64,000 nucleotides of DNA from Escherichia coli (GCF_013315695.1 NZ_CP054353.1), one strand, 5' to 3'. Shown: positions 54,072-64,000, counted from the stretch's first letter. Notes: generated by a model from the letters alone, not told the origin. Numbers and translations: made by a program.

Positions 54072-55232
54072 ATGACAAATAACCCTCTGATTCCACAAAG
54101 CAAACTTCCACAACTTGGCACCACTATTTTCACCCAGATGAGCGCGCTGGCGCAGCAACACCAGGCGATTAACCTTTCGCAAGGCTTTCCTGATTTTGAT
54201 GGTCCGCGCTATTTACAAGAGCGGCTGGCGTACCACGTTGCCCAGGGGGCAAACCAATACGCGCCTATGACTGGCGTGCAGGCCTTGCGCGAGGCGATTG
54301 CTCAGAAAACGGAACGTCTGTATGGCTATCAACCGGATGCCGATAGTGATATCACCGTAACGGCAGGGGCGACGGAAGCGTTATATGCAGCGATTACCGC
54401 ATTGGTGCGCAATGGTGATGAAGTGATCTGCTTTGATCCCAGCTATGACAGTTACGCCCCCGCCATCGCGCTTTCTGGGGGAATAGTGAAGCGTATGGCA
54501 CTGCAACCACCGCATTTTCGCGTGGACTGGCAGGAATTTGCCGCATTGTTAAGCGAGCGCACCCGACTGGTGATCCTCAACACCCCGCATAACCCCAGTG
54601 CAACTGTCTGGCAGCAGGCTGATTTCTCCGCTCTGTGGCAGGCGATTGCCGGGCACGAGATTTTTGTCATTAGCGATGAAGTCTACGAGCACATCAATTT
54701 TTCACAACAGGGCCATGCCAGCGTGCTGGCGCATCCGCAATTGTGTGAGCGAGCGGTGGCGGTGTCATCGTTTGGCAAGACCTATCATATGACCGGCTGG
54801 AAAGTGGGGTATTGCGTTGCACCTGCGCCCATCAGCGCCGAGATCCGCAAAGTGCATCAGTATCTGACCTTTTCGGTGAATACCCCGGCACAGTTGGCGC
54901 TTGCCGATATGCTACGTGCAGAACCTGAGCATTATCTTGCGTTACCGGACTTTTATCGCCAGAAGCGCGATATTCTGGTGAATGCCTTAAATGAAAGTCG
55001 GCTGGAGATTTTACCGTGCGAAGGTACATACTTTTTGCTGGTGGATTACAGCGCCGTATCTACGATGGATGATGTTGAGTTTTGCCAGTGGCTGACGCGG
55101 GAGCACGGCGTAGCGGCGATTCCGCTGTCGGTGTTTTGCGCCGATCCCTTCCCACATAAACTGATTCGTCTCTGTTTTGCCAAAAAGGAATCGACGTTGC
55201 TGGCAGCAGCAGAACGCCTGCGCCAGCTGTAG
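54072..55232 (+). CDS. ybdL: PLP-dependent methionine aminotransferase YbdL
   Basis: 386 aa, MTNNPLIPQSKLPQLGTTIFTQMSALAQQH..., PLP lysine motif SFGKTYHMTGWKVG. Confidence 0.9.
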   Translation: MTNNPLIPQSKLPQLGTTIFTQMSALAQQHQAINLSQGFPDFDGPRYLQERLAYHVAQGANQYAPMTGVQALREAIAQKTERLYGYQPDADSDITVTAGATEALYAAITALVRNGDEVICFDPSYDSYAPAIALSGGIVKRMALQPPHFRVDWQEFAALLSERTRLVILNTPHNPSATVWQQADFSALWQAIAGHEIFVISDEVYEHINFSQQGHASVLAHPQLCERAVAVSSFGKTYHMTGWKVGYCVAPAPISAEIRKVHQYLTFSVNTPAQLALADMLRAEPEHYLALPDFYRQKRDILVNALNESRLEILPCEGTYFLLVDYSAVSTMDDVEFCQWLTREHGVAAIPLSVFCADPFPHKLIRLCFAKKESTLLAAAERLRQL

Positions 55233-55862
55233 TTATTTAACCGTCCAGGCGCGGGAAAATTGACGGTCGGCAAACAACTCTTGCAGGCCGTTAATTTGCT
55301 TCAGGCGCAACACTTCGTCGCTGTCCATTCCCAGCTCTTTGCCAATTTTATTATCGTCCCATCCCAACTGGCTGAGTTCACGGACGATTTCTGACATGGC
55401 AGTGATTTGGTGACGTCCACGAGCGCGATTATGACGAATAGTCGCGGCGATGCGTTGATTACGCGTACCTTCCAGACAGGTCACCGGCAAATAACCTTTT
55501 AAGCGTAATTTTAACGATGATGAGCCTTTACCAATTTCATGGCGGTGAAAACCATCCACGATTTCCAGGGCATTTTTATCCGTATGCGTGACCACAATGG
55601 GTTGGGTAAAACCATCTATTTCAATGGATTTTTTCAGCAGTTTTTTTTCGGGTGGTGCCACGTTGTTTGGGTTGTAATCATTAGGCATAAGTTGGCTGTT
55701 TTTAACCCACAGAACGCAATCCACTGGCTCTTCACGAAAGGGGCTAACCTGATGGATCGCCATGCGGATTTCATTAATCGCTTTGATGCGATCATCTTCC
55801 GGCAAGCTGGCGAGAAATTGGGTTAAATCCTGCGTTAATCGTTGTTGCATAGTATCCCCCAT
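55233..55862 (-). CDS. ybdM: YbdM, ParB/sulfiredoxin-like nuclease-domain protein (IbrB-like)
   Basis: 209 aa, contains a ParB/Srx-type DGxHR motif (IVDGFHRHEIGK). Start overlaps the ybdN 3' end by 28 nt. Confidence 0.8.
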   Translation of the reverse strand: MGDTMQQRLTQDLTQFLASLPEDDRIKAINEIRMAIHQVSPFREEPVDCVLWVKNSQLMPNDYNPNNVAPPEKKLLKKSIEIDGFTQPIVVTHTDKNALEIVDGFHRHEIGKGSSSLKLRLKGYLPVTCLEGTRNQRIAATIRHNRARGRHQITAMSEIVRELSQLGWDDNKIGKELGMDSDEVLRLKQINGLQELFADRQFSRAWTVK

Positions 55863-57055
55863 TCCTGACGTTTTCCTTTTATCCGTTCGTTATAACGCTG
55901 ATAGTTCTTCGCTTTCGTAGGACTAAATGATAATGCCCGGCACCAGTAATCGTTATTGAGTAAAACTTTGCATATTCGCCGCCAGGAGGGGATATCTTTC
56001 GCGCCAATGTCCCCTTGCTGGGTTTGTGGAACTTCGATGCCTTTTTTCTGATACCAGTGCAAATAAATGGCGATTTTATTGCGGTAATGCTCAGCTGTTT
56101 TTTCCGGCATGCTATTGAGCAGCAATAATGCATATTCTTGCCAGTCTAAATGTTCTGGCTTGAGGATTTTCCGATGACCATAAAAATGATTATCATGTCC
56201 GGCGTAAATGCCGCCACTTTTTACCCCGCTGACTCGTGCGCACATAGCAGCCCAGCGATCCGGTTCGATAACGTGATAGAGCCATAATCCTTGCCGTTGC
56301 TCCGGGCCAAAAGGTTCGCAAATTCGCATATGACGCAGAGGAACGCCTGCCTGATACATTATATTATACAGTGGGTTACAGAGCTGTTGATGGTTAGCAT
56401 ACCAGGTCCAGATATCAGCCACTTTCCAGTCGTAGATGGGGTAAATGTACCAACTATGACCGCCTGGTGCGGCGGTGGTCCAGGGCTTATCATCGGCAAA
56501 ACGTTGTTTATTTAAACTGGCGATGGCGACAAAACGGTTGTAGGACTCATCTGCACGGATGCCGATCATCATCGCCGCCGGACGTTTTTGTGAAAACCAT
56601 TCAGCAAACTCACGCACAAATTGTTCGAAGGTCATGCCAGGCTGGTAAAAGGAGAAAAAGTCAGGATCGGTTATCGCATCTTGCGGAGGCTGACGCACCC
56701 ATTCGACATCAGGTTCCCAGCACTGCCATTCGGGTTGGTATTGAGAAAGGGAATTTTGCGTCGTAAGCGGGAGCGCAACCCAGTAAAACTCTTCGATGAC
56801 ATCGGCGTAAAACTCACGTAATGACTGAACATAGTTAATAGTGCATGAGAACTGCGCTTCCCAGTCGATAAACAAAACGCAGATTTTTTTGCCCATTTGT
56901 CGGACAATTTCGGCGGTCAGATGCAGCATTAATCCGGAATCTTTACCACCCGAAAAAGAAACGCAGACACGGGGTAGGGTATTAAGTGTCCAGGTAATAC
57001 GTTCTTTTGCAGCTTCCAGAATATTCAGTGGAAGCGGGATTTTATAAATAGACAT
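55835..57055 (-). CDS. ybdN: YbdN, PAPS-reductase-like PP-loop ATPase with DUF3440 (IbrA-like)
   Basis: 406 aa, PP-loop SGGKDS motif near the N-terminus (VSFSGGKDSGLMLHL). Confidence 0.8.
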   Translation of the reverse strand: MSIYKIPLPLNILEAAKERITWTLNTLPRVCVSFSGGKDSGLMLHLTAEIVRQMGKKICVLFIDWEAQFSCTINYVQSLREFYADVIEEFYWVALPLTTQNSLSQYQPEWQCWEPDVEWVRQPPQDAITDPDFFSFYQPGMTFEQFVREFAEWFSQKRPAAMMIGIRADESYNRFVAIASLNKQRFADDKPWTTAAPGGHSWYIYPIYDWKVADIWTWYANHQQLCNPLYNIMYQAGVPLRHMRICEPFGPEQRQGLWLYHVIEPDRWAAMCARVSGVKSGGIYAGHDNHFYGHRKILKPEHLDWQEYALLLLNSMPEKTAEHYRNKIAIYLHWYQKKGIEVPQTQQGDIGAKDIPSWRRICKVLLNNDYWCRALSFSPTKAKNYQRYNERIKGKRQEWGILCNND

Positions 57056-57201
57056 CTAAAAACGCTCTCTGAACGTTACGGGGTGACTCGTGAGATGAAT
57101 CCGCTAATTATAGGATAAACGAAGCAAGATAGAGCACATTATTTTATATTCACATAATGAATTAATTGATGCGTAATATATTATTTGTCAGTGGTAATGA
57201 A

Positions 57202-58104
57202 TCAGAAGCTATCATTTAAACGATCTATGAATCGGGAGAAGACAAGGTTGTTCAACGAAGCCTTGTTATAGGAAATATAAAGTTTAACCGCAGGAAGAGG
57301 TTGTTCCAGTTTTATTTCTTTTAACTTCAAAAAGTCACGATGTAAATTGTACAGTTCGGTGGGCACAATGCCTAATAAGTCAGTAACAGAAATACTATTA
57401 ATTATAGTCATCAAAGAAGAACTGCGAAATGAAACTTTACGGTTCATAAAGCGTTCATCTATGTCCATTTGAATTTCGTCAATCCCTGCTGATTTAGATA
57501 TCAACAGGGTGAATTCTTCGGCGATAATTTGTTCATAGTTACTGGTATCAGTAATACGAGGATGTTTGTTGCTACATATAAGGGAATTGCGAATAGTGTG
57601 TAACGGCATGCAGATGACAGAGCGACTAATTACTGGTTGTAGTGTAATTGCCAGGTCAGTTTTGCGTTGAACCAACAGTTCTTCGGCATTTTCAGCTGAA
57701 AGCAGTATGTCATGGCATTCTATATCGATTGAAGTATCTTGTCTAAGACAGCGGATTAGCATGTTGTTATTAGTACAAGAAATAAGCTGAGGACCGTAGA
57801 TAATAAAATTTTTCTTTAGTTCAGACTTATTAACGATATTGATCGTTTGTTCAAGGCCTCTGAGATTTTTCTCAAGATGGTGATGCAGGTTTAACCCTGT
57901 TGTAGTCGGCGCGATACCTTTCCCTGAGCGAATGAATAACGGGTCATTAAATTGCGCACGTAAACGTTGTAACGACTGACTAACAGCAGAGGGCGTTATA
58001 TATAATGATTCTGCCGCTTTACTAATGCTGAGATGTTGATAAATACATTCAAATATAACCAGTAAATTGAGGTCAAATTTTTTTAGATCATAAAGATTAG
58101 CCAT
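57202..58104 (-). CDS. ybdO: LysR-family transcriptional regulator YbdO
   Basis: 300 aa from the internal ATG (MANLYDLKKFDLNLLVIFECIYQHLSISKAAESLYITPSAVSQSLQRL, HTH). AT-rich gene. Confidence 0.8.
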   Translation of the reverse strand: MANLYDLKKFDLNLLVIFECIYQHLSISKAAESLYITPSAVSQSLQRLRAQFNDPLFIRSGKGIAPTTTGLNLHHHLEKNLRGLEQTINIVNKSELKKNFIIYGPQLISCTNNNMLIRCLRQDTSIDIECHDILLSAENAEELLVQRKTDLAITLQPVISRSVICMPLHTIRNSLICSNKHPRITDTSNYEQIIAEEFTLLISKSAGIDEIQMDIDERFMNRKVSFRSSSLMTIINSISVTDLLGIVPTELYNLHRDFLKLKEIKLEQPLPAVKLYISYNKASLNNLVFSRFIDRLNDSF

Positions 58105-58308
58105 AACATACTCCGTTGTATTGTCTCTTCCATAAATCATTCACTTGATCAATAATGTTGTTGTATTTATATGTGTTATGTTTTTCTGCTTAACTTTGGA
58201 TTAAGATTTTCTAAAATAGCATAGCTGTCAGGTGGGTTACGAGCAATTCATGCTTTTTTAGGATGGTTGAAAAGCAGGGATATATTTCAACCATCCATGA
58301 ATTATCTT

Positions 58309-59055
58309 TTATTTATTCCCCATAATGATATTAAGCGTTTTCTGATCGGGCAACCCCACGGCCTGTTGCAGTGTATTTTCCTTACTCATGTAATAGATAG
58401 CTGGCGTGACATTTGCCCCCAGATCGTCCATCAGTTTCTCGTTATCGCTTAACACTTTCATTTGCTCTGTACTTACGTTTGCAGGCACGTTTAGCTTAAG
58501 CTTGCCACCAGAGGCTTCATATTCTTGCCAGGTTTTTGCGGGATCTTTGGAGGCAAGAATTGCCGCTGCTGTCGCCGGGCTTTCTGGCTTGATAACGCCA
58601 ACCAACAATGTTCTTAATTGCACTTTGCCAGAATCTACCCACGGGCGAGCCTGCTGCCAGAACTGTTTACAATATGGGCAGAACGGATCGGCGAAGACGT
58701 AGACAATGACCGGCGCGTCTTTTTTACCGTCGAGGAGCCAGTGGGATTGTTCCATCCGTTGCCACATTTCACGTCCGGCGGGTGCGTAAATTTCTTTTTC
58801 GATAAGCGTGTTACTCAGGTTTTCACCTTTTTCGTTGTACATGTAACCAGAGATAGCGTGCTTACCATCTGGAGTCAGGTAGATGGTGACGCCCATATCC
58901 TGATACTTACCGAGATAACCTTTCATTCCTCCAGGGGCATCGAACGTTTTGATGATTGTAATACCCTGTTTTTCAATCGCTTTTACTGGGGCAGGAAGTT
59001 CCTCTGCGAAGGCGGTTGCAGGAAGCAGGGCCAGTAAAAGTATCTTTTTTAACAT
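58309..59055 (-). CDS. dsbG: Periplasmic disulfide isomerase/chaperone DsbG
   Basis: 248 aa from [21 protein letters not shown] active site. Confidence 0.9.
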
Positions 59056-59115
59056 TAATTTGTCCTTTTCAGTCAGTGCAAAAGTCGAGTAAAAGGCATA
59101 ACCTATCACTGTCAT

Positions 59116-61804: not shown

Positions 61805-62233
61805 TTAACGCACAACCAGCACCGGCAAATTGGCGTGGCGGATCACGCTCGAGGCGTTAGAACCCAACAGATGAGTTGAAATCGATGGGTTACGCGAACC
61901 AATCACTACTACATCTGCATCAAGTTCTTTCGCTAACTCGTTAACTTCATCCCGCACACTACCAAAACGGACATGTTGCTTAATGCGGGAAGGATCGATG
62001 GTGAAGTGGCTGACCATCGTTTGCAGACGTTCTTCTGCTTCATGTTGCAGATGCTCTTCAAAACGACGTACATCAGCGGCAAAACGGTGCAGGCTCAGGC
62101 TGGCTGACCCCGGTAGTACGTGAAGTAGATGAATAACTCCGTCATCCTGGGCGAGGAATTCAGCGTGGCGAACCGCTTTGTCGCTCAATTCCATTTCGAA
62201 AACATCCACTGGCATGATGATTGTTTTGTACAT
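61805..62233 (-). CDS. uspG: Universal stress protein UspG
   Basis: 142 aa from [21 protein letters not shown]... Confidence 0.9.
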
Positions 62234-62356
62234 AAGCATTCTCTCCTTGTTTTTGCATGTATACATAACAGCACATTATTGGTTATGAATCTATGATTTG
62301 CGAGGCTGATTTGATCTGAATTTGCTATTGAGCTGGAAAATAAATAAAACCAGGCG

Positions 62357-62446
62357 CTACCAGCGTTGTTCAAGGTATAGCACTGCAGCAACAATAATTG
62401 CGGCTATGAATATATAAAATGCAGTGATACCGAGAGCTTCGCTCAT
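62357..62446 (-). CDS. Candidate 29-aa small hydrophobic protein (hypothetical)
   Basis: ATG-initiated ORF encoding MSEALGITAFYIFIAAIIVAAVLYLEQRW (single predicted TM helix), upstream of and co-oriented with uspG. No strong Shine-Dalgarno. Unverified. Confidence 0.25.
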   Translation of the reverse strand: MSEALGITAFYIFIAAIIVAAVLYLEQRW

Positions 62447-62588
62447 ATGAGGTTCCGCAGATGAATAACCAGTTCAGATTAGAATGCTGCGCTTAAGAGC
62501 AAAATGATAAATCTGGTTGATATTTGAGCGGAAAGAGGATGCGAGTGCATCCTCTGGGCAAAGCGAGTTATCGCTTGTGCAGATGGGA

Positions 62589-62999
62589 TTAAAGCAGGTA
62601 ATCGCCAGCAGCTTCTGGCTGGTATTCGAGTTCCAGCACTTCAAGGTGGGTTGCAACGCCGCCTGGAAGTTCCCAGTGAATGGAATCGCCAACGCGCAGC
62701 CCCAGCAGTGCGGCACCTACCGGAGCCATAACGGAAAGCTGAGTATTGCTGTCGGTCATTTTTGCCGGATACACCAGCGTGCGCACACGCACTTCGCCAT
62801 CGCTAAGATTGCGGAATTTAACCCGGCTGTTCATTGTCACCACGTCGTGTGGCATCTCTTCTGGCGAACACATTTGGGCGCGATCCAACTCTGCGTTTAA
62901 CGCGTCGGCGATTGGCAAACCAGCATAGGCGGGTTGCTCCAGCAGAATATCGATGCGTTCGGCATCCAGGTCGTTAATGATGATAGTTGGTCTGGACAT
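62589..62999 (-). CDS. rnk: Regulator of nucleoside diphosphate kinase Rnk (GreA/GreB-like)
   Basis: 136 aa, [43 protein letters not shown]... Confidence 0.9.
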
Positions 63000-63228: not shown

Positions 63229-64000
63229 TTAATAACCTGCTTTATCAATCACAAAGGTTTTGCCACAGTTGCCTGGGTGTGGTTGTGGCAAGAATGAGTT
63301 GGCAGAAAGCGGAGCGTTGATGGCGTCAGCTTTGATCGAGATCTGAATTTCAGTCAAATACGCAGGGTTACCCTGGCACGTTAGCTTAACTGCTTTCACG
63401 TTCTCTTTTCCCCAGCTTTTGGCAAAGGCGGCATCAAAGTCACGGCGGCTCACTGTTTTACCGTAGTTATCCGCAAGGAATTTTCCGGCTTCGCTCTCTT
63501 TAATTTCTTGATTCAGGCGTACCATCGTGCCGAAGTATGCGTCTGGATCAAAACCAAAGCAGGCACCGTGTTTGGCATATTCGTAGCGTTCCAGGCAGGA
63601 ACGTCCGCCAGCTCCTGGCATGACTTCACTTAGTTTAGCTGCCGTTTCCAGCGATAACCCGGTTTCCGGAGATGAACACATTCGGCTGGCGCGCGCTTCT
63701 GATAGATTCGGGATTGGGCGAGTAGCGCAACCGAAGCGCATCCAGCGGCGTTCATCAACACCACGGGCAGCAACCGATTTAGGCAATCCTGGCCACAGAC
63801 CATGTACGGTCAGAAAATCAGCTTTGTTGGTCGTTTCGGTTTGCAGGCGACATTCATCTCGTTCGTTACGATTTCGATCGTGTTGACTCTGGCAAAATCC
63901 GGTTTGCCAGGAGAGGGCCAGGACATAGCGATCAAAATCGCCATACTGTTTTGCCTGCAACGCCACGGCGTTGGCAGAAGAGAAGGGAAGCAGAGAAACC
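63229..64000 (-). CDS. rna: Periplasmic RNase I (RNase T2 family); N-terminal end beyond window
   Basis: C-terminal 257 codons recognised (...LALSWQTGFCQSQHD..., ...HGLWPG...). The frame is open to the window edge. Confidence 0.9.
   Translation of the reverse strand, partial: VSLLPFSSANAVALQAKQYGDFDRYVLALSWQTGFCQSQHDRNRNERDECRLQTETTNKADFLTVHGLWPGLPKSVAARGVDERRWMRFGCATRPIPNLSEARASRMCSSPETGLSLETAAKLSEVMPGAGGRSCLERYEYAKHGACFGFDPDAYFGTMVRLNQEIKESEAGKFLADNYGKTVSRRDFDAAFAKSWGKENVKAVKLTCQGNPAYLTEIQISIKADAINAPLSANSFLPQPHPGNCGKTFVIDKAGY

What the first reader, a model, noticed from the sequence alone, without database searches (positions are those of the whole stretch)
55233..58104. ybdO-ybdN-ybdM: LysR regulator with an overlapping PAPS-reductase-like/ParB-like gene pair (IbrA/IbrB-like) of unresolved function
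ybdN (PP-loop SGGKDS ATPase, PAPS-reductase family with DUF3440) and ybdM (ParB/sulfiredoxin-fold protein with a DGxHR motif) overlap by 28 nt and are preceded by the AT-rich LysR gene ybdO. Homologous pairs (IbrA/IbrB) were reported to activate prophage eib genes. PP-loop enzymes of this family (DndC-like, BREX-associated PAPS reductases) and ParB-like nucleases recur in DNA-modification and phage-defence systems. The pair could be a nucleic-acid modification or sensing module rather than a sulfate-assimilation enzyme. No biochemical function is established.
Basis: inference. Interest (0 to 1): 0.55.

Follow-up and report, generated by a model that had tools for sequence, protein, structure and literature searches.

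The report
Phage-type ParB plus PP-loop gene pair
ybdN-ybdM is the silenced E. coli copy of a two-gene module (an ATP-using PP-loop enzyme plus a ParB-like DNA-binding protein) that is always inherited as a pair and is common in phage replication regions and on plasmids. It very probably acts on DNA rather than in sulfur metabolism, but its chemistry is still unknown.

Summary
ybdM (55233-55862) and ybdN (55835-57055) overlap by 28 nt on the minus strand, downstream of the AT-rich LysR gene ybdO/citR (57202-58104).

YbdN is a PAPS-reductase-fold PP-loop protein (SGGKDS) with a basic helical DUF3440 domain. YbdM has a ParB/sulfiredoxin fold (DGFHR, TIRHNRARGxH) plus a C-terminal helix-turn-helix.

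The pair is tightly linked. A YbdM-like gene lies next to the YbdN-like gene, on the same strand, in 79 of 80 species genomes (the exception is cut by a contig end). The same holds in 75 of 80 viral contigs and in all five full phage records I inspected.

In phages the pair sits among replication and recombination genes, often beside an SNF2 helicase. On enterobacterial IncF plasmids it sits beside virulence loci.

It is not CysH: no catalytic cysteine, and scores far below the family cut-offs. It is not DndC, BrxP or any PADLOC defence system.

Best reading (confidence 0.42): a mobile-element-derived, DNA-directed, ATP-dependent modification or anti-silencing module, kept off in E. coli by CitR and H-NS. 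The defence link is not supported. The pair is long annotated as IbrA/IbrB-like, so interest is moderate.

The parts
55835..57055 (-). ybdN: IbrA-family PP-loop ATP pyrophosphatase (PAPS-reductase fold) with a C-terminal DUF3440 domain, 406 aa
56936..56959 (-). PP-loop motif SFSGGKDS (YbdN residues 33-40)
   Evidence: translation. G37, K38 and S40 are invariant in 56 diverse homologues. An exact SGGKDS is present in 51/56.
55838..56347 (-). DUF3440 region of YbdN (residues 237-406): all-helical, basic (pI 9.4)
   Evidence: Pfam. (helices 259-399, high pLDDT); pI 9.38 against 5.0 for the N-terminal domain; family medians 9.37 against 6.68. No solved-structure match covers it.
55233..55862 (-). 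ybdM: IbrB-family ParB/sulfiredoxin-fold protein with a C-terminal helix-turn-helix, 209 aa
55835..55862 (-). 28-nt overlap of the ybdN 3' end with the ybdM 5' end (translational coupling)
   Evidence: The same -28 overlap occurs in 10 enterobacterial species, and short overlaps or gaps are the rule elsewhere.
55542..55556 (-). DGFHR motif of YbdM (residues 103-107), aligned with ParB box II GERR
   Evidence: D103, G104 and R107 are invariant. The profile alignment to Noc/ParB places DGfHR over GERR, and NxYNPN over box I NRFQPR.
55410..55442 (-). TIRHNRARGRH signature of the IbrB family (YbdM residues 141-151)
   Evidence: R143, H144, N145, R146, A147, R148, G149 and H151 are invariant in 25 diverse homologues.
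55272..55355 (-). C-terminal helix-turn-helix of YbdM (about residues 170-197, IGKELGMDSDEVLRLKQINGL)
   Evidence: helices 170-177 and 181-197. (HTH matches). Conserved GMDxDE..LRLKQ.
57202..58104 (-). ybdO = citR, a LysR-type repressor. It is AT-rich and hyper-divergent between E. coli allele classes.
   Evidence: NF047710 CitR scores 455 bits, cut-off 400. (GC 0.35-0.40). ChIP-exo peak upstream of citR, and the deletion raises ybdN by +5.5 log2. (divergence).
57056..57201 (-). ybdO-ybdN intergenic region (146 nt, AT-rich). A promoter for ybdNM may lie here, but none was found.
   Evidence: sequence. The promoter scan finds nothing above chance. The region is only about 76% identical between the E. 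coli allele classes.
58105..58308 (-). ybdO upstream region, where CitR binding was reported
   Evidence: sequence; paper PMC9068703 reports the ChIP-exo peak upstream of citR.

Best explanation
ybdN-ybdM is the chromosomal, vertically inherited enterobacterial copy of a mobile two-gene module, the IbrA/IbrB family. Its main habitat is the early replication/recombination region of phages and the accessory regions of plasmids.

Proposed mechanism:
- YbdM is a ParB/sulfiredoxin-fold nucleotide-binding protein. It has a sulfiredoxin-like GxHR variant of ParB box II and a C-terminal helix-turn-helix. It binds DNA and targets or licenses its partner.
- YbdN is an ATP alpha-beta pyrophosphatase / adenylyltransferase of the CysD / FMN-adenylyltransferase / PAPS-reductase clade, carrying a basic helical DUF3440 domain. 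It activates, by adenylylation, a group on DNA or on a DNA-bound substrate.
- The result is a covalent mark that does not depend on cysteines of the enzyme.
- In about a fifth of the loci an SNF2 translocase, encoded immediately upstream, gives access to duplex DNA.

Proposed pay-off: the DNA is read differently. For a phage that means escape from restriction or control of its own gene expression. In enterobacteria it means activation of silenced, horizontally acquired genes (the reported Eib phenotype of IbrAB). In E. coli the module is normally kept off by CitR (YbdO) and H-NS.

Shown here: the folds, the motifs, near-universal gene linkage, the mobile-element habitat, the helicase association, purifying selection, and non-membership in CysH, DndC and BrxP.

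Inferred: DNA as the substrate, adenylylation chemistry, complex formation, and the biological pay-off.
For: Linkage. A YbdM-like gene is adjacent and co-directional in 79/80 species genomes (74 with a gap of 50 nt or less, or an overlap) and in 75/80 viral contigs. It is also adjacent in all five full phage records inspected. These span Proteobacteria, Bacteroidota, Firmicutes, Verrucomicrobia, a Heimdallarchaeota MAG and a haloarchaeal plasmid.

DNA orientation of the module:
- The closest non-family relatives of the YbdM domain are the N-terminal ParB domains of phage DNA methyltransferases (phrog_498, E 1e-10; PADLOC MTase_II).
- The YbdN C-terminal domain is basic (pI 9.4) and rich in invariant Trp and Tyr.
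- An SNF2 helicase abuts the pair upstream in 18 genome loci, 17 viral loci and 2 cultured phages.
- Recurrent phage neighbours, almost all co-directional, are a RecE-like exonuclease, RecT, O/DnaD-like initiators, DnaB and NinG/Rap.

Active enzyme. The PP-loop is invariant, and D64, E66, R167, E170, S171 and R174 are conserved. dN/dS is 0.03-0.15.

Regulation and phenotype. CitR binds upstream of citR. In the ybdO deletion strain ybdN rises +5.5 log2 and ybdM +2.5 log2. The cit genes, the flagellar regulon and the whole CysB regulon also change, although no CitR ChIP peak lies at those genes. Phage records carry the curated note 'Co-activator of prophage gene expression IbrA/IbrB'.

Plasmid context. 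IbrAB-like copies on IncF plasmids lie next to fimbrial operons plus a PerC regulator, or next to rmpC/iro/iut loci.
Against: - No modified base or backbone has ever been tied to this family. I found no biochemical study.
- The DUF3440 domain has no recognisable DNA-binding homologue. The only hints are non-significant Pfam matches to integrase SAM-like domains (E 1.6 and 0.29).
- PP-loop enzymes of the same fold act on small molecules (CysD, FAD synthase) or on tRNA (TilS, TtuA).
- The single published phenotype, activation of eib, is recalled from memory and from annotation notes. It could be explained by DNA binding alone.
- The CysB-regulon induction in the ybdO mutant hints at a sulfur connection that this model does not explain.
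Confidence: 0.42

Rival explanations
1. A transcriptional co-activator or anti-silencer that leaves no DNA mark. YbdM/IbrB would act like the ParB-family regulators VirB or KorB: an NTP-dependent DNA-bound protein that displaces or blocks H-NS at AT-rich foreign genes. YbdN would supply or consume a nucleotide ligand, or modify YbdM or another protein.
For: - Annotation notes call the family 'Co-activator of prophage gene expression'.
- Plasmid copies lie beside fimbrial or virulence loci and, on two plasmids, a PerC regulator.
- In the ybdO mutant ybdNM is strongly up, and the poorly expressed citCEF genes and other regulons change without CitR binding there.
- The locus itself is AT-rich, and the paper describes citR as H-NS regulated.
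Against: - This does not explain why an intact PP-loop enzyme is co-inherited in essentially every case.
- It does not explain why virulent phages (S. thermophilus Moineauvirus) carry the pair, why it sits in replication/recombination modules, or why an SNF2 helicase joins it.
- YbdM lacks the ParB C-terminal dimerisation domain and the GERR CTP motif used by VirB and KorB clamps.
- PerC adjacency was seen on only 2 of the loci I hold.
Confidence: 0.22
2. An anti-phage defence or abortive-infection module. The ParB-like protein would sense foreign or damaged DNA, and the PP-loop enzyme would act as effector, by ATP/nucleotide depletion or toxic modification, as proposed for DndB-like and ParB-like NTPases.
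For: - Weak similarity to DndC and BrxP.
- ParB-fold sensors occur in GmrSD, SspE and Dpd (papers read).
- A 2026 preprint lists untested candidate systems that pair a nucleoid protein with a PAPS reductase and a ParB-domain protein.
- Prophage and plasmid carriage is compatible with defence cargo.
- One archaeal locus lies next to a PDC-S37/Hhe-like gene.
Against: - No PADLOC family reaches a meaningful score.
- 9 of 10 sampled large neighbours are not strong defence candidates.
- The pair is a core gene of Enterobacteriaceae in fixed synteny, not in a variable island.
- It is carried by virulent phages and placed inside their replication modules, transcribed with them.
- It is silenced in E. 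coli rather than constitutively expressed.
Confidence: 0.1
3. An RNA (tRNA) modification enzyme with a ParB-like accessory protein or regulator. YbdN would adenylate a base on tRNA, as TilS, TtuA or ThiI do. Changed decoding would alter expression of AT-rich foreign genes.
For: - The basic C-terminal domain could bind RNA.
- AT-rich foreign genes use rare codons, so a decoding change could give an 'activation' phenotype.
Against: - The closest fold relatives are the PAPS-reductase / CysD / FMN-adenylyltransferase clade, not the tRNA enzymes.
- The obligatory partner carries a DNA-type HTH of the ParB kind, and an SNF2 DNA translocase is a recurrent third gene.
- No tRNA genes or RNA-binding domains (THUMP, PUA) were found in the pair.
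Confidence: 0.1
4. A sulfur-metabolism enzyme: a viral/host 'cysH' auxiliary metabolic gene, PAPS/APS reductase or sulfotransferase. This is how the family is currently annotated and counted in viromics.
For: - The RefSeq name is 'phosphoadenosine phosphosulfate reductase'.
- The PHROG category is 'auxiliary metabolic gene'.
- The fold is that of CysH/APS reductase.
- The CysB regulon is induced when ybdNM is de-repressed.
- A viromics study groups the DUF3440 clade with cysH.
Against: - The CysH models score 35.6 and 25.1 bits against cut-offs of 254.2 and 165.1. CysD scores 25.4 against 195.
- 0/56 homologues have the ECGLH catalytic cysteine.
- No cysteine is conserved at all, and the best cysteine column is Ala in E. 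coli.
- The protein keeps an ATP-type SGGKDS loop.
- It is always paired with a ParB-HTH protein and never recurrently with other cys genes.
Confidence: 0.05

Closest known systems
IbrA/IbrB of E. coli ECOR-9 (annotated 'co-activators of prophage gene expression')
   Same: Same two families and the same gene order and overlap. Escherichia phage PhiR5_2 IbrA is 56% identical to YbdN, and its IbrB gives E 2e-75 against YbdM. RefSeq names YbdM 'IbrB-like'.
   Different: YbdNM is a paralogue (about 56-59% identity), fixed in the chromosome under a LysR repressor. The eib-activation phenotype was reported for IbrAB, not YbdNM; I recall that paper from memory because it is not in the library. No mechanism is known for either pair.
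DndB/DndC of the Dnd phosphorothioation system
   Same: A ParB-superfamily DGxHR protein is paired with a PAPS-reductase-fold SGGKDS ATP pyrophosphatase that acts on DNA. DndB is also a regulator (papers read).
   Different: The DndC model scores 22.8 bits against a cut-off of 290.4. YbdN has none of the cysteines said to characterise DndC. No recurrent DndA, DndD or DndE partner appears in 160 loci. The C-terminal domain (DUF3440) differs, and so do the accessory genes (SNF2 helicase, the X family).
DpdA/DpdB of the 7-deazaguanine DNA modification system
   Same: A ParB-like ATPase is needed for a DNA-modifying enzyme to act on duplex DNA, and SNF2-type helicases (DpdE) are part of the system (paper read; the helicase shows generic similarity).
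   Different: The catalytic partner there is a tRNA-guanine transglycosylase homologue, not a PP-loop enzyme. No preQ0 pathway genes recur near YbdNM-type pairs.
Phage and plasmid ParB-DNA methyltransferase fusions
   Same: The ParB domain of YbdM is most similar, outside its own family, to the N-terminal ParB domain of these methyltransferases (phrog_498 E 1e-10 to 4e-13; PADLOC MTase_II E 6.5e-4). Both occur in early regions of mobile elements.
   Different: The enzymatic partner here is a separate PP-loop protein, not a fused SAM methyltransferase.
CysD/CysN ATP sulfurylase and FMN adenylyltransferase (FAD synthase)
   Different: Their substrates are small molecules and they have no DUF3440 domain. 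YbdN fails the CysD models (25.4 bits against 195). The partner here is a DNA-binding ParB-fold protein.
VirB and KorB, ParB-family transcription regulators
   Same: ParB N-domain plus HTH, acting on transcription of horizontally acquired genes (background in the paper read).
   Different: YbdM has DGFHR instead of GERR, has no C-terminal dimerisation domain, and always has an enzyme partner.

Membership tests
IbrA/IbrB (YbdN/YbdM) family | IbrA architecture: PAPS_reduct (PF01507) followed by DUF3440 (PF11922) | tested here: met
   E 4e-14 and 5e-23; phrog_2302, full length, E 6.6e-76.
IbrA/IbrB (YbdN/YbdM) family | IbrB signature: ParB N-domain with NxYNPN, DGxHR and TIRHNRARGxH, plus a C-terminal HTH | tested here: met
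   (invariant columns); phrog_2159, E 1e-68. (fold).
IbrA/IbrB (YbdN/YbdM) family | The two genes are adjacent and co-directional | tested here: met
   28-nt overlap here. Adjacent in 79/80 genomes and 75/80 viral contigs.
IbrA/IbrB (YbdN/YbdM) family | Activates expression of prophage eib genes | not testable with these tools
   Only annotation notes are available. The original paper is not in the library.
Assimilatory PAPS/APS reductase (CysH) | Score above the curated family cut-off | tested here: not met
   TIGR02057 scores 35.6 against 254.2; TIGR00434 scores 25.1 against 165.1.
Assimilatory PAPS/APS reductase (CysH) | C-terminal catalytic cysteine (ECGLH motif) | tested here: not met
   0 of 56 homologues, YbdN included. 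No conserved cysteine.
DndC (DNA phosphorothioation) | Score above the curated cut-off of TIGR03183 | tested here: not met
   22.8 bits against 290.4. PADLOC DndC scores 22.8 and 19.5 bits.
DndC (DNA phosphorothioation) | Conserved cysteines for sulfur transfer (the cysteine dyad described for DndC in the paper read) | tested here: not met
   No cysteine column reaches 90%. The best column (84%) is Ala in E. coli YbdN, and the cysteine patterns are inconsistent across homologues.
DndC (DNA phosphorothioation) | Partner genes dndA (cysteine desulfurase), dndD and dndE in the neighbourhood | tested here: not met
   Clustering the neighbours of 86 + 80 loci finds only an SNF2 helicase and small unknown families as recurrent partners. 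This used BLAST clustering, not specific Dnd profiles.
BREX type 4 BrxP | Match to the BrxP model and presence of PglZ/BrxC neighbours | tested here: not met
   BrxP scores 20.3 bits over residues 29-102 only. No recurrent large neighbours.
Canonical ParB/Spo0J partition protein | Score above the TIGR00180 cut-off, and a box II GERRxR CTP-binding motif | tested here: not met
   15.8 bits against 58.45. DGFHR replaces GERR.
Canonical ParB/Spo0J partition protein | C-terminal dimerisation domain and an adjacent parA | tested here: not met
   The protein ends about 12 residues after the HTH. No ParA-like recurrent neighbour was found.
Known or candidate anti-phage defence systems (PADLOC-DB 2.0.0) | Significant match of either protein to a system component | tested here: not met
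   Best E-values are 9.5e-6 (DndC) and 6.5e-4 (ParB domain of MTase_II). Nothing matches YbdO.
CitR (YbdO) LysR-type repressor | Score above the NF047710 cut-off | tested here: met
   455 bits against 400. Function as given in PMC9068703.

The most novel reading that the evidence does not exclude
The IbrA/IbrB (YbdN/YbdM) module installs a previously undescribed, sulfur-independent covalent DNA modification through ATP-dependent adenylylation. It is targeted by a sulfiredoxin-like ParB protein and sometimes assisted by an SNF2 translocase.

Phages would deploy it from their early replication modules against restriction. Enterobacteria and their virulence plasmids would have co-opted it to switch on silenced foreign genes.

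A corollary: a sizeable share of the viral 'cysH' auxiliary metabolic genes counted in viromes would be this DNA-directed module rather than sulfur metabolism.
Probability: 0.25. Interest if true: 0.85.

Novelty: new variant of a known kind. Interest (0 to 1): 0.5.

Why it matters
ybdN and ybdM are among the remaining function-unknown genes of E. coli K-12, and they are core genes of Enterobacteriaceae. This analysis gives them a concrete, testable role.

- They form an obligate pair that is far more widespread in phages and plasmids than its annotation suggests.
- The pair resembles DndB/DndC and DpdB/DpdA in architecture, but it lacks the sulfur chemistry.
- If it marks DNA, it would add a new epigenetic or anti-restriction chemistry.
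- It could also explain how IbrAB-type genes turn on silenced prophage and virulence genes.
- Part of the regulon attributed to CitR might then be an effect of de-repressed YbdNM.

Practically, the RefSeq name 'phosphoadenosine phosphosulfate reductase' and the viromics label 'cysH AMG' are very likely wrong for this clade.

Tried and rejected
- **Literature.** Searches for ybdN/ybdM, IbrA/IbrB, DUF3440 and PAPS reductase + ParB found no functional or biochemical study. The Maindola 2014 ParB/Srx paper is not held.
- **PADLOC.** No membership for the three proteins. For 10 large neighbours there was one strong defence hit and one relaxase-like protein with weaker hits. There is no basis for a defence-island claim.
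- **Conserved cysteines or an Fe-S triad in YbdN.** None found. Sulfur-relay chemistry rejected.
- **CysH motif.** Absent.
- **Promoter/terminator scan of 55100-58400.** Counts equal those of shuffled sequence, so no promoter is claimed.
- **Domain fusions of YbdN homologues (alignment A2).** Only DUF3440 and PAPS_reduct, one ABC_tran and one marginal GNAT match. Not informative.
- **Accessory families.** The 140-aa X family, the Bacteroidota 140-aa family and the 380-510-aa family upstream of the helicase have no Pfam, NCBIfam, PADLOC or named PHROG match.
- **PerC as a general third partner.** It is present on only 2 plasmids among all the DNA I hold. Rejected as general.
- **Single-protein scan of viral contigs.** It found only one close relative. 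The alignment-based scan was needed.
- **The E. coli 89% identity class.** I first took it as divergence of the whole locus. It is confined to ybdO and its intergenic flanks.


Full report
**1. Observation**

The window holds three co-directional minus-strand genes. They lie between ybdL (54072-55232, plus strand) and dsbG (58309-59115, minus strand).
- ybdM: 55233-55862, 209 aa.
- ybdN: 55835-57055, 406 aa.
- ybdO: 57202-58104, 300 aa. The longest ORF runs to 58140.

ybdN and ybdM overlap by 28 nt. For ybdO, the start at 58104 has a Shine-Dalgarno sequence 7 nt upstream. It also coincides with the start of the NCBIfam CitR model match.

GC content is 0.35-0.40 over ybdO and 0.43-0.50 over ybdNM, against 0.52-0.59 in the flanks.

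YbdN carries SFSGGKDS at residues 33-40, with Pfam PAPS_reduct and DUF3440. YbdM carries VDGFHRH at 102-108 and Pfam ParB_N.

RefSeq annotates the same genes as ybdN, citR and ybdM ('IbrB-like domain-containing protein'). The locus is in 5420 of 5426 complete E. coli genomes.

**2. The proteins**

*YbdN.* The AlphaFold2 model is confident (pLDDT 92.4, pTM 0.90).
- Residues 236-406 (DUF3440) form an all-helical domain. No solved-structure match covers it.
- That domain is basic, with pI 9.4 against 5.0 for the catalytic domain. The family medians are 9.37 and 6.68.
- In 56 homologues of 27-84% identity, the invariant residues are G37, K38, S40, D64, E66, W113, W119, S171, D214 and Y230. The GxRxDES segment is nearly invariant.
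- No cysteine is conserved. The best column is 84% Cys but Ala in E. coli, and the cysteine patterns are inconsistent.
- The CysH catalytic ECGLH motif is absent from all 56.

*YbdM.* The model has pLDDT 84.7.
- It has an N-terminal helical hairpin, which is absent from the 170-aa short forms of the family.
- It has a C-terminal helix-turn-helix that resembles sigma region 4, LuxR, the KorB and P1 ParB DNA-binding domains and VirB.
- A profile alignment to Noc and ParB places the invariant NxYNPN over ParB box I, and DGFHR over box II GERR.
- The GxHR form of box II is that of sulfiredoxin, an ATP-using member of the fold (my own knowledge of the sulfiredoxin family), rather than the GERR form of the CTP clamps.
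- A further invariant signature, TIRHNRARGxH, and a GMDxDE..LRLKQ helix define the family.

*YbdO.* It is CitR (455 bits, cut-off 400).

**3. Linkage and distribution**

YbdN has 214 relatives at E ≤ 1e-30 among the 50%-identity cluster representatives.

An alignment-based scan of one genome per species returned 80 loci. They come from Enterobacteriaceae, Opitutales, Bacteroidota, Firmicutes, Alphaproteobacteria, Helicobacter, Desulfobacteraceae and a Heimdallarchaeota MAG.
- In 79 of the 80 a YbdM-like gene is adjacent on the same strand.
- In 74 of them the order is N then M, with a gap of 50 nt or less, or an overlap.
- The single exception is a contig that ends 40 nt after ybdN.

In 80 IMG/VR viral contigs, 75 have the partner within 1 kb on the same strand. 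Two of the five exceptions end at the contig edge.

The viral homologues are 40-54% identical to YbdN. Most non-enterobacterial cellular homologues are 30-40% identical.

tblastn finds the family in:
- 224 of 50,697 phage records, 44 of them near full length. These include virulent S. thermophilus phages and phages of Clostridium scindens, Microcystis, Pseudomonas and Chlorobiaceae (Flavobacterium phages give the most records, but I did not check how much of YbdN those matches cover). They also include Escherichia phage PhiR5_2, where the genes are annotated IbrA and IbrB.
- 784 of 72,556 plasmid records.

**4. Partners and context**

Four kinds of extra gene recur.

1. An SNF2-family helicase of about 415 aa lies directly upstream, often overlapping. 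It occurs in 18 genome loci, 17 viral loci and two cultured phages.
2. A family of about 140 aa, which I call X, has no match in Pfam, PHROGs, NCBIfam or PADLOC. It lies between ibrB and ibrA in 14 phage-type loci, or is fused to the C-terminus of IbrB in 20.
3. Another family of about 140 aa lies directly upstream of ibrA in 18 Bacteroidota loci. It is fused to an IbrA homologue in one protein.
4. The LysR gene occurs only in Enterobacteriaceae.

In viral contigs the other recurrent neighbours are almost all co-directional. They are a RecE-like exonuclease, RecT/Bet, O/DnaD-like initiators, DnaB and NinG/Rap, which together make up the early replication/recombination region.

On IncF plasmids of Klebsiella, E. 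coli and Salmonella, a paralogue of about 58% identity lies next to iroB/rmpC, next to iutA, or after chaperone-usher fimbrial operons. On two of these plasmids a PerC-family regulator follows it.

Within Enterobacteriaceae the ybdO-ybdN-ybdM-ybdL synteny is fixed. ybdN and ybdM evolve under purifying selection, with dN/dS 0.03-0.15.

**5. What is published**

The only experimental paper in the library is PMC9068703.
- It reports a CitR ChIP-exo peak upstream of citR.
- In a ybdO deletion, ybdN rises +5.5 log2 and ybdM +2.5 log2.
- In the same strain the entire CysB regulon rises (+1.7 to +3.2), citCEF rise (+3.3 to +4.4), the flagellar regulon rises and lrhA falls (-4.3).
- No CitR peak lies at any of those genes.

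My inference is that these secondary changes could be consequences of de-repressed YbdNM. Also, if the deletion carries a kan cassette, read-through into ybdNM could contribute to the 'de-repression'. Neither point was tested in the paper.

The eib-activation report for IbrAB is reflected only in annotation notes. I otherwise recall it from memory.

A viromics preprint groups the DUF3440 clade with viral cysH.

**6. Interpretation**

The data exclude a CysH/CysD-type metabolic role. They also exclude membership in DndC, BrxP, canonical ParB or any PADLOC system.

They show an obligate pair made of a DNA-binding ParB/Srx-fold protein and an intact ATP-type PP-loop enzyme with a basic extra domain. 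The pair is frequently joined by a DNA translocase, and phages carry it in their DNA replication modules.

The same architectural logic is known from three systems: DndB/DndC, DpdB/DpdA, and ParB-methyltransferase fusions. In each, a ParB-fold protein accompanies a DNA-modifying enzyme.

I therefore judge a DNA-directed, adenylylation-based modification module to be the most likely mechanism (0.42). The rivals are:
- a pure ParB-type anti-silencer or co-activator, 0.22
- a defence or abortive-infection effector, 0.10
- an RNA modification enzyme, 0.10
- a sulfur-metabolism enzyme, 0.05

The CysB-regulon response remains unexplained by the main model.

**7. Novelty and score**

The genes and their IbrAB kinship are long annotated, so the observation itself is not new.

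The following are new here:
- quantification of the linkage
- the phage replication-module habitat
- the helicase and X-family partners
- the absence of conserved cysteines
- the re-reading of the CitR regulon

The system is best placed as a new variant of the 'ParB-fold protein plus DNA-modifying enzyme' kind. Interest is 0.5: a real, testable open question on a conserved K-12 gene pair, but without biochemical proof and not a surprise to specialists.

Noticed in passing
window 56900-58300 (ybdO/citR and both flanking intergenic regions): Two E. coli allele classes differ by 15-30% in nucleotide sequence here. ybdN/ybdM are 93-99.7% identical and the flanks 92-99%. For YbdO, amino-acid identity is 88.7%, dS is 2.78 (saturated) and dN/dS is 0.024. 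dS is only 0.23 for ybdN and 0.08 for ybdM. In 3343 of 5420 genomes the whole 2.9-kb query region is only 80-90% identical, consistent with their carrying the other ybdO class.
   Followed up: partly
window 62267-62588 (between uspG and rnk): The window has uspG (61805-62266) directly followed by rnk (62589-62999) and rna (63229-63966). It lacks ybdR and yldA, which lie between uspG and rnk in E. coli strain A3024.
   Followed up: no
L007 (contig CAUHML010000335.1, labelled as an uncultured Bacteroides MAG): This 2.5-kb contig encodes a YbdN 98% identical to the E. coli protein, preceded by a LysR gene. It is very probably E. coli contamination of the bin.
   Followed up: no
phage-type loci, e.g. 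L128:7559-7981, L006:5567-5992, L005:5631-6029; fused forms e.g. L119:6874-8001, L026:5848-7035: A family of about 140 aa (alignment A4; conserved W..NSCEH.LTN..MNRIAWLGQA) has no Pfam, PHROG, NCBIfam or PADLOC match. It is either a separate gene between ibrB and ibrA or fused to the C-terminus of IbrB. That marks it as a third functional component in many phages.
   Followed up: partly
Bacteroidota loci, e.g. L039:1623-2048, L040:9569-9997, L070:9580-10005: A second unknown family of about 140 aa lies directly upstream of ibrA in 18 Bacteroidota loci. It is fused to the C-terminus of an IbrA homologue in P0174, and a relative lies between ibrA and ibrB in L035. It might be GNAT-like, but the only support is one unattributed 0.09 E-value Pfam match in the fusion set and my own reading of the sequence.
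   Followed up: partly
L088:10904-11149 and L171:8875-9129 (IncF plasmids of E. coli and Salmonella): A PerC-family transcriptional regulator gene directly follows the IbrAB-like pair. The pair itself follows a chaperone-usher fimbrial operon. The Salmonella plasmid also has a LysR gene next to it. This was not seen in the other loci I hold.
   Followed up: partly
literature: bioRxiv 10.1101/2021.01.05.425418: Viral 'cysH' is reported as the most abundant organosulfur auxiliary metabolic gene, and one clade carries DUF3440. That clade is the IbrA family, which lacks the CysH catalytic cysteine and always has a ParB-like partner. These counts probably overstate viral sulfate assimilation.
   Followed up: partly
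window 55232/55233: The stop codon of ybdL (plus strand) and the stop codon of ybdM (minus strand) abut with no spacer. The only terminator-like hairpin nearby (55110-55128, plus strand) lies inside ybdL.
   Followed up: no
PMC9068703, Table 1: In the ybdO deletion strain the complete CysB sulfate-assimilation regulon is induced together with ybdNM, although CitR does not bind there. This could be an indirect effect of YbdN activity on sulfur or adenine-nucleotide pools. It is unexplained.
   Followed up: no
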